Of a DNA stretch of 64,000 bases, positions 58,829 to 59,821 are shown one piece after another. Within the stretch, counting starts at the first letter, position 1, and each line of letters begins with the position of its first letter. The stretch lies in the sequence record OM386662.1; one strand, 5' to 3'. Below the pieces are notes generated by a model that worked only from the letters and a program-made list of their open reading frames with translations, was not told where the DNA came from and did not search any database. The position numbers were made by a program, and so were the translations under genes. The stretch is from Escherichia phage vB_EcoM_ESCO47.

Positions 58829-59821
58829 ATGTTACCTGTCATCAGAAAACTTATTTCTCCAAAAGAACTGGCTGAGATTATTCCTTTGTCGGAAGCTTAC
58901 GCATCACAAGTGGCTTCTCATCGCGAACAAGTTAATTCGATTATGAACGGTGAAGACCCACGCAAACTTATTGTTGTAGGTCCTTGTTCAATTCATGACC
59001 CTATTGCTGCTGTTGAATACGGCAAACGTCTGGCTGAACTTCAAACTCGTCTTCCTAATGTTCTGTTAGTGATGCGCGTTTATTTTGAAAAGCCTCGAAC
59101 TACCGTAGGTTGGAAAGGTCTTGTAAATGATCCATATCTTGACGGAAGTTTTGATATGAACCACGGTCTTATAGTTGCACGAACATTGTGTCGTAAACTT
59201 CTGCGTATGGGACTTCCATTAGCAACTGAAGTATTAGACCCATTCACGATTAAGTATCTTTCTGGTATTTTCTCATGGGTTGCTATTGGCGCCCGTACGA
59301 CTGAAAGTCAGACACATCGTGAAATTGCTTCAGGTCTACCGATGTGCGTAGGCTTCAAGAACGCAACCAATGGTTCTATTAAAGTAGCTACAGACGCGAT
59401 GTATAGTGCCGCCCAGCCTCATCGGTATATGGGTATGGACGTCGATGGTACTGTAGGCATTGTTGAAGCTGAAGGTAATCAGAATACGCATATCGTATTG
59501 CGTGGTGGGACTAACGGTCCGAACTATCATTCTTCTGATATTCAAGAAGCTTCTAACAAAGCAAGTGCGGTAGGTCTGAATCATTATGTAATGGTTGACT
59601 GTAGCCATGCAAACGCTGGTGGGTATTATAGCAATCAAATTGATATTGGTAAAAATTTAGCAGCTAATGATTTGGTCAAAGGAATTATGATAGAATCATT
59701 CCTACATGAAGGAAATCAAAAAATTTCTGATAATATGTCCTATGGCGTTTCCATTACCGATGCGTGCATCAGTTGGGAACAAACTAAAGAGCTGTTAACT
59801 TATATTAATAAGGTTCAATAA
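58829..59821 (+). CDS. 3-deoxy-D-arabino-heptulosonate-7-phosphate (DAHP) synthase, class I AroG/AroF/AroH-like
   Basis: 330 aa; hallmark motifs [31 protein letters not shown], GFKN and [9 protein letters not shown]; AAGGA RBS. Confidence 0.85.
   Translation: [330 protein letters not shown]

What the first reader, a model, noticed from the sequence alone, without database searches (positions are those of the whole stretch)
58829..59821. Phage-encoded class I DAHP synthase immediately upstream of dCMP deaminase
The protein carries hallmark motifs of AroG/AroF/AroH-type DAHP synthases ([40 protein letters not shown]), with its own RBS in the pseT-cd interval. It is the first committed enzyme of the shikimate pathway, not a nucleotide-metabolism gene. 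Its N-terminus appears a few residues shorter than E. coli AroG, the region involved in feedback inhibition, so it may be feedback-insensitive. Possible roles are boosting aromatic amino acid or prephenate supply, or making a deoxy-heptulosonate sugar acid.
Basis: partly seen in the sequence, partly recalled or inferred. Interest (0 to 1): 0.7.

Follow-up and report, generated by a model that had tools for sequence, protein, structure and literature searches.

The report
Phage copy of shikimate entry enzyme
This T4-like phage carries a real, catalytically intact DAHP synthase whose feedback-inhibitor pocket has been rewritten; the gene is already annotated in about 200 phage genomes, but it occurs only in phages that also carry a U32-family hydroxylase-like gene (usually with a chorismate mutase) beside their cytosine-hydroxylating DNA-modification genes, which suggests it supplies prephenate for oxygen-independent DNA base hydroxylation rather than simply making amino acids.

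Summary
ORF 58829..59821 (+, 330 aa) is a type I-alpha DAHP synthase, 51% identical to E. coli AroF, with all 12 catalytic residues intact, its own RBS, and a stop that overlaps the cd start. The gene is not new: 212 phage records carry it, many annotated, and one paper calls it an auxiliary metabolic gene. What I add: (1) The phage enzymes form one clade (200/200 bootstraps) under purifying selection. It has a shortened N-terminus, and its few clade-specific substitutions fall on documented inhibitor-site residues (AroG P150, Q151, D155, S180, F209), so Tyr/Phe feedback is probably lost. (2) It is a 1.1-kb cassette flanked by 19-nt direct repeats, absent from RB69. (3) 191 of about 195 phage-clade DAHPS records also carry a Peptidase_U32 gene (window 422..1582) next to the 5-hydroxy-dCMP synthase. 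In every U32-positive genus checked except Mosigvirus, a chorismate mutase lies between the two. Related phages without U32 (Dhakavirus, Acinetobacter phages) lack all three genes. U32 proteins are prephenate-dependent, O2-independent hydroxylases. My best reading (about 45%) is that a deregulated DAHPS raises prephenate for anaerobic cytosine hydroxylation. The main rival is generic aromatic amino acid supply. No experiment exists.

The parts
58829..59821 (+). DAHP synthase gene (330 aa), type I-alpha, AroF-like, phage-specific clade with short N-terminus and remodelled inhibitor pocket
58819..58823 (+). Ribosome-binding site AAGGA, 5 nt upstream of the DAHPS ATG; overlaps the stop of the small leader ORF
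   Evidence: sequence read directly
58717..58735 (+). Left copy of the 19-nt direct repeat (ATAATGAGAGCTATCTCAT) at the cd.2 stop; left border of the 1101-bp cassette relative to RB69
59818..59836 (+). Right copy of the direct repeat (ATAATGAAAGCTAGCACAT; 16/19 identical), spanning the DAHPS stop and cd start
58707..58820 (+). Small leader ORF (37 aa from its ATG; listed as a 47-aa ORF from GTG 58677) inside the cassette. It overlaps the cd.2-like stop and ends 8 nt before the DAHPS start. Annotated as a hypothetical protein in phage Mizar. Coding status uncertain.
58484..58720 (+). cd.2-like gene (DUF7320), the upstream neighbour; abuts cd directly in RB69
59821..60402 (+). dCMP deaminase (cd); start overlaps the DAHPS stop (TAATG), which suggests translational coupling
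422..1582 (+). Peptidase_U32-family protein (386 aa; ortholog of RB69 gp50), proposed consumer of prephenate; co-occurs with the DAHPS in 191 phage records
1579..1818 (+). 79-aa ORF ('ORF49' family) in the slot where other genera have chorismate mutase; not a chorismate mutase
1861..2577 (+). Thymidylate-synthase homolog with catalytic Cys and the D169N signature, i.e. the flavin/O2-dependent 5-hydroxy-dCMP synthase (RB69 gp48 ortholog)

Best explanation
[quoted passage not shown] It descends from an AroF-like enzyme captured long ago by an ancestor of several T4-like genera and kept at one site between pseT and cd. Compared with cellular enzymes it has lost the first roughly 8-10 residues and has replaced the residues that bind the inhibitor amino acid. 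It therefore probably ignores Tyr/Phe feedback and forces carbon into the shikimate pathway even in amino-acid-rich conditions where the host pathway is throttled. I propose that the product that matters is prephenate. The extra chorismate is converted by the phage's own AroQ chorismate mutase (in most sister genera) or by host PheA/TyrA (in Mosigviruses such as this one). Prephenate would then serve as oxygen donor for the phage's U32-family Fe-S protein, which sits beside the O2/flavin-dependent 5-hydroxy-dCMP synthase. That would give an O2-independent route to the 5-hydroxycytosine these phages arabinosylate. If prephenate is used stoichiometrically, one burst needs on the order of 10^7 molecules (about 65,000 cytosines per genome times about 150 genomes), which would explain why a pathway-entry enzyme is worth carrying. 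Shown here: enzyme family, intact active site, remodelled inhibitor site, purifying selection, cassette anatomy, and co-occurrence with U32 and chorismate mutase. Inferred: feedback insensitivity, U32 acting as a cytosine/dCMP hydroxylase, prephenate as its donor, and anaerobiosis as the selective context.
For: Enzyme identity: Pfam, NCBIfam and PDB matches. 12/12 catalytic residues are invariant in 30 phage-clade and 98 cellular sequences. Deregulation: all 30 phage-clade sequences have the catalytic Cys at residue 49-53, against 59 or later in all listed cellular homologs. An unbiased scan finds only 10 clade-discriminating positions. These are the N-terminal deletion plus P150I, Q151K, D155G, L156I, S180P, F209Y, T223A and one loop deletion. 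PMC9529685 documents P150L, S180F and F209A/S as feedback-resistant, Q151 and S180 as contacts to the inhibitor main chain, and D155 as a stabilising salt bridge. Overlap of 5 of 7 substitutions with 11 known positions out of 330 gives p = 3e-7. Long retention: monophyly 200/200; dN/dS 0.14-0.25 with saturated dS; GC3 29%, like the phage; same pseT->cd position in six genera. Link to U32 and prephenate: window 422..1582 is Peptidase_U32, adjacent to the D169N TS-homolog. U32 occurs in 221 records and DAHPS in 212, with a union of 242, so 191 records share both; 17 of the 21 DAHPS-only records belong to an unrelated lineage below 60% identity. A CM_2 chorismate mutase scoring above the Pfam cutoff lies between U32 and the TS-homolog in Kanagawa-, Marfa-, Winkler-, Braga- and Tegunavirus and Thanatos, and keeps R11, R28, K39, E52, S84 and Q88. 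U32-lacking relatives that have the TS-homolog (Dhakavirus WG01, 57 Acinetobacter phage records, Rhizobium phages) lack U32, CM and DAHPS together. Biochemical precedent: U32 proteins RlhA (5-hydroxycytidine), TrhP (5-hydroxyuridine) and UbiU/V need prephenate and Fe-S clusters, and prephenate is the demonstrated O donor for UbiU/V (PMC5727448, PMC6599085, PMC10990095).
Against: There are no experimental data on the phage DAHPS, the U32 protein or the chorismate mutase. The published pathway needs only the O2/flavin TS-homolog for 5hodCMP, and RB69, which lacks both DAHPS and CM, is fully modified under laboratory conditions. The DAHPS is therefore at most conditionally useful. All DAHPS/U32/CM-positive phages are related T4-like genera, so the number of independent evolutionary events behind the co-occurrence is small: perhaps one gain plus a few losses. 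The DAHPS lies 57 kb from the U32 cluster, not inside it. Yersinia Tegunaviruses have U32 + CM without DAHPS. Dhakaviruses infect E. coli without any of the three genes, so an anaerobic route is not obligatory for enteric hosts. The phage U32 is a distant family member (15-21% identity; only the 1st and 3rd canonical motif cysteines align). The authors of PMC13326640 list it as a 'sugar or heterocycle reductase'. Two key papers (He et al. 2026 Nat Chem Biol; Mahler et al. 2025 Cell Host Microbe) were not readable here and may assign these genes differently.
Confidence: 0.45

Rival explanations
1. Generic auxiliary metabolic gene. The deregulated DAHPS simply boosts Phe/Tyr/Trp synthesis to sustain phage protein production after host transcription is shut off, with no specific link to DNA modification. 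This is the hypothesis offered for Klebsiella phage KLB31 in PMC11845039.
For: This is the canonical function of the enzyme. The active site is intact and feedback is probably lost, which is what one would engineer for aromatic amino acid overproduction. The gene is not inside the modification cluster (57 kb away). The published hypothesis is quoted.
Against: It does not explain why the gene is confined to U32-positive T4-like phages (191 of about 195 records) and absent from the much larger set of other T4-like phages with the same protein-synthesis needs, including syntenic Dhakaviruses on the same host. It also does not explain why a second prephenate-pathway gene (chorismate mutase, without prephenate dehydratase or dehydrogenase) sits between U32 and the cytosine hydroxylase.
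Confidence: 0.3
2. Supply of another chorismate-derived product needed during infection: p-aminobenzoate/folate for nucleotide metabolism, quinones, or enterobactin for iron (for example for Fe-S proteins).
For: The gene sits among nucleotide-metabolism genes and is translationally coupled to cd. The U32 protein probably needs Fe-S clusters.
Against: Folate-intensive T4-type phages (hydroxymethyl-C makers) do not carry the gene. The phages that do carry it have replaced the folate-dependent step with a flavin enzyme. The co-occurring second gene is chorismate mutase, which pulls chorismate away from folate, quinone and enterobactin branches.
Confidence: 0.08
3. Altered substrate use. The enzyme condenses PEP with arabinose-5-phosphate (which the phage makes for its arabinosyl donor) or another sugar phosphate, producing a KDO-8-P-like sugar acid.
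For: These phages encode an arabinose-5-P isomerase. From my own knowledge, E. coli DAHPS can use A5P weakly.
Against: The KPRT(T) E4P-phosphate motif and every known substrate ligand are invariant. No clade-specific substitution maps to the active site. Dhakaviruses and Acinetobacter phages have the arabinose pathway but no DAHPS.
Confidence: 0.04
4. Passenger or decaying gene with no current function.
For: It is dispensable in RB69 and a few other Mosigviruses, and it is a discrete cassette flanked by short repeats.
Against: dN/dS is 0.14-0.25 across genera with saturated synonymous sites, the active site is 100% conserved, composition is ameliorated, and the position is retained in six genera.
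Confidence: 0.02

Closest known systems
E. coli AroF (Tyr-sensitive DAHP synthase, type I-alpha; PDB 6AGM/6AGL)
   Same: 51% identity over the full length; same TIM-barrel family (TIGR00034 equivalog); identical metal ligands, PEP and E4P-phosphate residues; Gly at the position where AroG has Ser211; nearest outgroup in the NJ tree.
   Different: Lacks residues equivalent to AroF 1-10. The inhibitor contacts Q152 and S181 are replaced by K and P, AroG-P150 equivalent by I, D156 by G and F210 by Y. It also has a one-residue insertion and two loop deletions. It scores below the AroG- and AroH-specific NCBIfam cutoffs. It is encoded by a virus and has phage-like composition.
Engineered or selected feedback-resistant DAHP synthases (AroG P150L, S180F, F209A/S, Q151 variants; N-terminal-domain-engineered enzymes)
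   Same: The phage clade carries natural substitutions at the same positions that laboratory mutants use to abolish inhibition, plus an N-terminal truncation.
   Different: Several positions are changed at once and fixed across a whole natural clade. The actual residues (I, K, G, P, Y) differ from the laboratory alleles. Insensitivity has not been measured.
Dual O2-dependent / O2-independent hydroxylation systems with a U32 protein and prephenate (TrhO/TrhP for ho5U, UbiI-H-F/UbiU-V for ubiquinone, RlhA for ho5C2501)
   Same: The phage has an O2-dependent pyrimidine C5-hydroxylase (the TS-homolog) beside a U32-family protein with conserved cysteines, and carries genes for making prephenate.
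   Different: The substrate would be a DNA precursor or DNA rather than RNA or a quinone. The U32 protein is very divergent (best NCBIfam hit is UbiU at E=5e-4, far below cutoff). No cellular system is known to bring its own DAHPS or chorismate mutase. Function is untested.
DAHPS-chorismate mutase partnerships in bacteria (my own recollection: the M. tuberculosis AroQ-delta CM activated by DAHPS; the B. subtilis CM-DAHPS fusion, see the PMC5526877 abstract)
   Same: A small AroQ chorismate mutase and a DAHPS are kept together in one genome, and the phage CM lacks the EcCM R51 equivalent, as low-activity AroQ mutases do.
   Different: The phage genes are unlinked (57 kb apart), the DAHPS is type I-alpha rather than type II or I-beta, and no interaction is shown.
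Phage auxiliary metabolic genes in general; KLB31 DAHP synthetase as reported in PMC11845039
   Same: Same gene family in a Kanagawavirus; described as an AMG for aromatic amino acids.
   Different: That report offers only a generic hypothesis. It does not note the inhibitor-site remodelling, or the adjacent 'collagenase'/U32 and chorismate mutase genes as a unit.

Membership tests
Type I-alpha DAHP synthase (AroF/AroG/AroH family, TIGR00034, Pfam PF00793) | Full-length match to the family profile above curated cutoffs | tested here: met
   PF00793 254.4 bits (cutoff 25.5); TIGR00034 equivalog 430.9 bits (cutoff 173.2); PRK12755 subfamily 458.5 bits (cutoff 343)
Type I-alpha DAHP synthase (AroF/AroG/AroH family, TIGR00034, Pfam PF00793) | Metal-binding tetrad Cys-His-Glu-Asp (AroG C61, H268, E302, D326) | tested here: met
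   C53, H260, E289, D311; invariant in 30 phage-clade and 98 cellular sequences
Type I-alpha DAHP synthase (AroF/AroG/AroH family, TIGR00034, Pfam PF00793) | PEP-binding Arg/Lys set (AroG R92, K97, R165, K186, R234) and the KPRT(S/T) E4P-phosphate motif that separates DAHPS from KDO8P synthase | tested here: met
   R83, K88, R156, K177, R225; K88-P89-R90-T91
Type I-alpha DAHP synthase (AroF/AroG/AroH family, TIGR00034, Pfam PF00793) | Catalysis of PEP + E4P -> DAHP | not testable with these tools
   Needs an enzyme assay or complementation of an aroF aroG aroH strain
Feedback-regulated isozyme (AroF Tyr-, AroG Phe-, AroH Trp-sensitive) | N-terminal segment that closes the inhibitor site of the neighbouring subunit (AroG D6, D7, L8 region) | tested here: not met
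   Deleted in all 30 phage-clade sequences; present in all 98 cellular homologs
Feedback-regulated isozyme (AroF Tyr-, AroG Phe-, AroH Trp-sensitive) | Inhibitor main-chain contacts Gln151 and Ser180 (AroG numbering; AroF Q152, S181) and pocket residues P150, D155, F209 | tested here: not met
   K, P, I, G, Y respectively in 29-30 of 30 phage sequences; Q98/98, S97/98, P93/98, D98/98, F98/98 in cellular sequences; residue roles from PMC9529685
Feedback-regulated isozyme (AroF Tyr-, AroG Phe-, AroH Trp-sensitive) | Isozyme-specific NCBIfam models (AroG equivalog, AroH subfamily) | tested here: not met
   AroG model 366.5 bits < cutoff 568; AroH model 387.9 bits < cutoff 463
Prephenate-dependent U32 hydroxylase system (considered for the DAHPS + U32 + CM gene set) | A Peptidase_U32-domain protein | tested here: met
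Prephenate-dependent U32 hydroxylase system (considered for the DAHPS + U32 + CM gene set) | Four-cysteine Fe-S motif of U32 proteins | tested here: inconclusive
   Only the 1st and 3rd canonical Cys align with TrhP/RlhA/UbiU/UbiV. Other conserved Cys are present (C204, C240-region, and a C-terminal CX4CX3CX2C)
Prephenate-dependent U32 hydroxylase system (considered for the DAHPS + U32 + CM gene set) | Genetic dependence on prephenate synthesis | tested here: inconclusive
   Only genomic association: a CM_2 gene adjacent to U32 in at least 6 genera, and DAHPS co-occurring in 191 records. Causal dependence needs genetics or isotope labelling.
AroQ (type II) chorismate mutase, for the neighbour gene in sister genera | CM_2 profile match and EcCM active-site residues | tested here: met
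   32.8-44.6 bits (cutoff 27) in six phages; R11, R28, K39, E52, S84, Q88 invariant; D48->N and R51->V/I differ. Not present in this window.

The most novel reading that the evidence does not exclude
A group of T4-like phages carries a self-contained prephenate-supply module: a feedback-blind DAHP synthase, plus in most genera an AroQ chorismate mutase. This module would feed a viral U32 Fe-S hydroxylase that makes 5-hydroxy-(d)cytosine without O2. If so, the phages have both an aerobic (flavin/O2 TS-homolog) and an anaerobic (U32/prephenate) route to their DNA hypermodification. It would be the first case of the shikimate pathway being redirected by a virus as a stoichiometric oxygen-donor supply for DNA base modification, and the first U32 hydroxylase acting on DNA or its precursors.
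Probability: 0.4. Interest if true: 0.85.

Novelty: new variant of a known kind. Interest (0 to 1): 0.6.

Why it matters
As an annotation the gene is ordinary: a DAHP synthase already labelled in about 200 phage genomes. Three things make it worth following up.

1. It is a natural enzyme clade, diversified over a long time, with an intact active site but a rewritten inhibitor pocket. That is directly useful as a source of feedback-resistant DAHPS for aromatic-compound production, and as a natural experiment on I-alpha allostery.

2. Its strict association with a U32 gene and a chorismate mutase gives a concrete, testable answer to an open question in the new arabinosyl-5-hydroxycytosine field. 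The known hydroxylase needs O2, so how do gut phages modify their DNA anaerobically, and what does the unassigned 'gp50' do?

3. U32 hydroxylases still lack an in vitro assay. A viral system with a small soluble substrate (dCMP) and a dedicated prephenate supply could provide one.

It also bears on phage therapy, since Mosigviruses are common therapy candidates. Modification status, and therefore sensitivity to host restriction, may depend on oxygen and on this accessory cassette.

Tried and rejected
1. Prephenate as a cofactor of the TS-like 5hodCMP synthase. Rejected: PMC13326640 shows it is flavin- and O2-dependent with 18O2 incorporation.

2. The window's 79-aa ORF (1579..1818) as a diverged chorismate mutase. 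Rejected: no Pfam hit, BLAST E=7.1, and no match to a phage-CM profile. Yersinia phage TG1 has a homolog of this ORF and a true CM side by side.

3. A link between the DAHPS and the arabinose (Ru5P -> Ara5P) pathway as such. Rejected: Dhakavirus and Acinetobacter phages have that pathway without the DAHPS.

4. Recent capture from the host. Rejected: there is no cellular homolog above 55% identity, GC3 is phage-like, and dS between genera is saturated.

5. Promoter and terminator scans of 56.5-60.8 kb gave no signal above the shuffled expectation, so I make no claim about timing of expression.

6. Literature searches for an experimental study of a phage DAHPS found only annotation-level mentions. 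He et al. 2026 and Mahler et al. 2025 could not be read.

8. Distant DAHPS hits (Aeromonas phage HJ05, human-faecal 'Bacteriophage sp.' contigs, Acinetobacter MD-2021a contigs) belong to other lineages, have no U32 nearby where I checked (HJ05), and were not pursued.

9. Structure prediction of the DAHPS was judged uninformative, given 51% identity to solved AroF, and was not run.
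Full report
**1. Observation.** The ORF is at the stated coordinates: 58829..59821, + strand, 330 aa. It has an AAGGA ribosome-binding site 5 nt upstream. An in-frame stop at 58793-95 with no alternative start in between shows that the short N-terminus is genuine. Its TAA overlaps the ATG of dCMP deaminase (TAATG at 59819-59823). The surrounding genes follow the T4 order rnlA-alc-pseT.3-pseT.2-pseT.1-pseT-cd.x-[DAHPS]-cd-31.1-31-rIII. The window is a Mosigvirus (RB69-like phage) about 90% identical in DNA to many isolates.

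**2. What the protein is.**
- Family matches are strong: Pfam DAHP_synth_1 E=1.2e-75; NCBIfam TIGR00034 (aroFGH equivalog) 430.9 bits against a cutoff of 173; best solved structure E. coli AroF at E=3.6e-105.
- Identity to E. coli AroF, AroG and AroH is 51%, 48% and 45%.
- The metal ligands (C53, H260, E289, D311), PEP ligands (R83, K88, R156, K177, R225) and the KPRT E4P-phosphate motif are all present.
- These residues are invariant in 30 phage-clade and 98 cellular homologs.
The protein should be an active DAHP synthase.

**3. It is already known as an annotation.** tblastn finds the gene in 212 phage records. Of these, 139 are at 95-99% identity (E. coli/Shigella Mosigviruses), 47 at 60-80% (Enterobacter, Edwardsiella, Klebsiella, Serratia, Erwinia phages, EcS1) and 26 below 60% (Proteus phages plus unrelated lineages). 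Many are labelled 'phospho-2-dehydro-3-deoxyheptonate aldolase' or similar. One paper describes the Kanagawavirus KLB31 copy as an auxiliary metabolic gene for aromatic amino acids, as a hypothesis only (PMC11845039). I found no experimental study.

**4. A distinct, old, selected phage clade.**
- In a 5.8-billion-protein search, every hit at 56% identity or more is short (319-343 aa) and comes from phages or phage-sized contigs. Cellular homologs begin at 55% or less and are 341-385 aa long.
- The 30 short sequences are monophyletic in 200/200 NJ bootstraps, and E. coli AroF is the next sequence to join.
- dN/dS against five other genera is 0.14-0.24 with saturated synonymous sites (dS 1.2-2.1), and 0.25 within the genus.
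- GC is 40.8% and GC3 is 29%, matching neighbouring phage genes.
- The gene occupies the same pseT->cd interval in Mosig-, Kanagawa-, Marfa-, Winkler-, Kagamiyama- and Bragavirus.
- This pattern indicates one ancient capture of an AroF-like gene followed by vertical inheritance.

**5. The inhibitor site is rewritten.** All phage-clade proteins place the catalytic Cys at residue 49-53, against 59 or later in cellular enzymes. They therefore lack the N-terminal segment, including the AroG D6/D7/L8 equivalents.

I scanned for positions that are fixed in the phage clade, conserved on a different residue in cellular enzymes, and where the phage residue is nearly absent from cellular enzymes. Only ten positions qualified:
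- the N-terminal deletion (two positions);
- P150->I, Q151->K, D155->G, L156->I, S180->P, F209->Y and T223->A;
- one loop deletion.

A review of DAHPS feedback engineering documents the roles of these residues. P150L, S180F and F209A/S are feedback-resistant. Q151 and S180 (AroF Q152/S181) bind the inhibitor's main chain. D155 forms a stabilising salt bridge (PMC9529685). Five of seven substitutions fall in a set of 11 documented positions out of about 330 (hypergeometric p = 3e-7). This test is post hoc but uses an independently published list. N-terminal-domain engineering is also a published route to feedback resistance (reference listed).

The segment around these residues ([43 protein letters not shown]) is nearly invariant among phages that are only 59% identical overall. 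The new state is therefore itself under constraint. I infer at about 70% that the enzyme is insensitive to Tyr and Phe. Regulation by some other ligand is not excluded.

**6. Cassette anatomy.** RB69 itself lacks the gene: cd.2 abuts cd. Alignment shows that this window has an exact 1101-bp insertion at the cd.2-stop/cd-start overlap. The insertion is bracketed by a 19-nt direct repeat (58717-58735 and 59818-59836, 16/19 identical), which is a copy of the cd start region. The 13-nt core occurs 3 times in the window, against 0.01 expected by chance. RB69's junction is what recombination between the repeats would leave. Because six genera carry the gene at this site, loss in RB69 is the parsimonious reading. 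The cassette also contains a 108-nt leader with a small ORF that is overlapped at both ends in T4 style.

**7. The informative context is 57 kb away.**
- Window 1861..2577 is a thymidylate-synthase homolog with the catalytic Cys and the D169N signature. PMC13326640 shows that signature marks 5-hydroxy-dCMP synthases, which are flavin- and O2-dependent. These phages arabinosylate the resulting 5-hydroxycytosine.
- Immediately upstream, window 422..1582 encodes a Peptidase_U32-family protein (Pfam 42.4 bits, cutoff 22.4), 99.5% identical to RB69 gp50.
- That paper lists gp50 only as a 'sugar or heterocycle reductase' matching U32 structure 5d88. It does not mention U32 chemistry, prephenate, chorismate or DAHPS.
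- U32 proteins are the family of O2-independent hydroxylases. RlhA makes 5-hydroxycytidine in 23S rRNA and needs prephenate and Fe-S clusters (PMC5727448). TrhP makes 5-hydroxyuridine in tRNA in parallel with the O2-dependent TrhO (PMC6599085). UbiU/V use prephenate as the oxygen donor, and the authors propose this is shared by U32 proteins (PMC10990095).

**8. Co-occurrence.**
- U32 occurs in 221 phage records, all at 80% identity or more, and DAHPS in 212. A chimeric U32+DAHPS query matches 242 records (434 places), so 191 records carry both.
- Of the 21 DAHPS-only records, 17 belong to unrelated lineages below 60% identity, and about 4 are fragmentary Mosigvirus records.
- The 30 U32-only records include RB69, mar005P1, six Yersinia phage records, Serratia phage 92A1 and some fragments.
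- A CM_2 (AroQ) chorismate mutase lies between U32 and the TS-homolog in 51 records by tblastn. It scores above the Pfam cutoff in Kanagawa-, Winkler-, Marfa-, Teguna- and Bragavirus and Shewanella phage Thanatos. It keeps EcCM R11, R28, K39, E52, S84 and Q88, with D48->N and R51->V/I (the EcCM residue list is from my own knowledge).
- Mosigviruses, including this window, have no CM. The syntenic 79-aa ORF is a separate family.
- The O2-dependent TS-homolog is found in 373 records. These include groups without U32: 57 Acinetobacter phage records, Rhizobium/Agrobacterium phages and E. coli Dhakaviruses.
- In Dhakavirus WG01 the kinase gene abuts the TS-homolog (no U32, no CM), and the pseT->cd interval has no DAHPS. 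Its TS-homolog is as close to the window's (about 78-79%) as those of U32-positive genera.
- In summary, DAHPS and CM follow U32 rather than 5-hydroxycytosine or arabinosylation as such. Every phage-clade DAHPS and every CM occurs in a U32-positive genome. Almost every U32-positive phage has at least one of the two.

**9. Proposed mechanism.** The facts are listed above; the model itself is inferred. The deregulated DAHPS pushes carbon into the shikimate pathway whatever the aromatic amino acid levels. Chorismate is converted to prephenate by the phage CM, or in Mosigviruses by host PheA/TyrA. The U32 Fe-S protein then uses prephenate as O donor to hydroxylate cytosine C5 (dCMP or DNA) when O2 is unavailable. 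This would parallel TrhO/TrhP and UbiIHF/UbiUV.

A rough stoichiometry supports the need for a supply enzyme (my calculation). The window is 38% GC, so a 170-kb genome has about 65,000 cytosines. About 150 genomes per burst gives about 10^7 prephenate per cell in under 30 minutes. That is a sizeable fraction of a whole generation's Phe + Tyr flux, and far above what a feedback-inhibited pathway delivers in rich medium.

All U32-positive phages infect facultative anaerobes (Enterobacterales, Shewanella). The 5hoC phages of strict aerobes (Acinetobacter, Rhizobium) lack the module.

**10. Caveats.**
- The carriers are related genera, so independent evolutionary events are few.
- RB69 modifies its DNA fully without DAHPS or CM under aerobic laboratory conditions.
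- Tegunaviruses have U32 + CM without DAHPS.
- Dhakaviruses manage on E. coli with none of the three genes.
- The phage U32 is distant from characterised members and aligns only two of the four canonical cysteines, although other conserved Cys, including a C-terminal CX4CX3CX2C, are present.
- Two primary papers on this pathway could not be read.

My layered confidence is: active DAHPS about 0.9; Tyr/Phe-insensitive about 0.7; role is prephenate supply for the U32 protein about 0.45; generic aromatic amino acid AMG about 0.3.

**11. Verdict.** The gene's existence in phages is already known. What is new is the evidence that this is a natural feedback-site-remodelled DAHPS clade, its cassette structure, and a specific, testable functional link to U32/prephenate-dependent hydroxylation in the arabinosyl-5-hydroxycytosine pathway.

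Noticed in passing
window 422..1582 (+): A Peptidase_U32-family gene (RB69 gp50 ortholog) lies directly beside the 5-hydroxy-dCMP synthase. Across genera it is at least 80% identical, far more conserved than the DAHPS or CM. The recent RB69/DLP3 pathway paper lists it only as a 'sugar or heterocycle reductase', and some BASEL phage records call it a UDP-arabinose biosynthesis enzyme. Its family is the prephenate-dependent O2-independent hydroxylases.
   Followed up: yes
window 1579..1818 (+): A 79-aa ORF with no Pfam family occupies the slot between U32 and the TS-homolog. Homologs occur in all Mosigviruses and also in Yersinia TG1, Pectobacterium PM2 and Serratia 92A1, where it sits next to a true chorismate mutase. 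Its start overlaps the U32 stop. Function unknown.
   Followed up: partly
L005 5158-5397, L006 5158-5502, L020 2453-2746, L021 1786-2031, L022 2483-2740, L025 3530-3904: Small AroQ-type chorismate mutase genes (79-124 aa) in six T4-like genera, always between U32 and the TS-homolog. The EcCM R51 equivalent is replaced by V/I and D48 by N. Winkler- and Bragavirus copies have N-terminal extensions of about 35-50 aa.
   Followed up: partly
window 58717-58735 and 59818-59836: A 19-nt direct repeat (16/19 identical) duplicates the cd start region and brackets the 1101-bp DAHPS cassette. The ORF that starts at the left copy (58720..58875, 'MRAIS...') mimics the cd N-terminus 'MKAST...' and is probably a by-product of the duplication.
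   Followed up: yes
L007 (RB69 NC_004928.1 131000-141000): The type Mosigvirus RB69 lacks the DAHPS cassette. In addition, its annotated cd is 169 aa against 193 aa here, although the DNA upstream of the annotated start is identical to this window's cd start. The RB69 cd start is therefore probably mis-annotated.
   Followed up: partly
L017 6257-7420 (Aeromonas phage HJ05, OQ594355.1): An unrelated, longer (387 aa) DAHP synthase, 38% identical, in a 79-kb non-T4 phage. Its neighbours include a methyltransferase and an Asn_synthase/ThiI-like ATP-pyrophosphatase, with no U32. This is an independent acquisition of unknown purpose.
   Followed up: partly
window 1..364 (+) and 2577..4026 (+): The window begins inside a HAD-like gene that looks like the AfhF/gp51 Ara-1,5-P2 phosphatase. 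Downstream of the TS-homolog lie a 299-aa ORF (probably arabinosyltransferase gp46:47, intact here rather than split as in the RB69 record) and a 182-aa ORF (thymidylate-kinase-like gp45). These assignments rest on synteny with Table 1 of PMC13326640 only; the 299-aa and 182-aa ORFs gave no Pfam hit.
   Followed up: no
window 22839..23939 (+): A 366-aa ORF with no Pfam hit between the topoisomerase large subunit and rIIA. This is the position where RB69 gp3, the second DNA arabinosyltransferase, is described. Not verified.
   Followed up: no
L013 3498-3839, L014 3483-3818, L015 3457-4082: In Winkler-, Kagamiyama- and Bragavirus, one or two extra small genes (about 95-113 aa) lie between the DAHPS and cd and overlap the DAHPS stop. 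They are absent in Mosig-, Kanagawa- and Marfavirus. Not examined.
   Followed up: no
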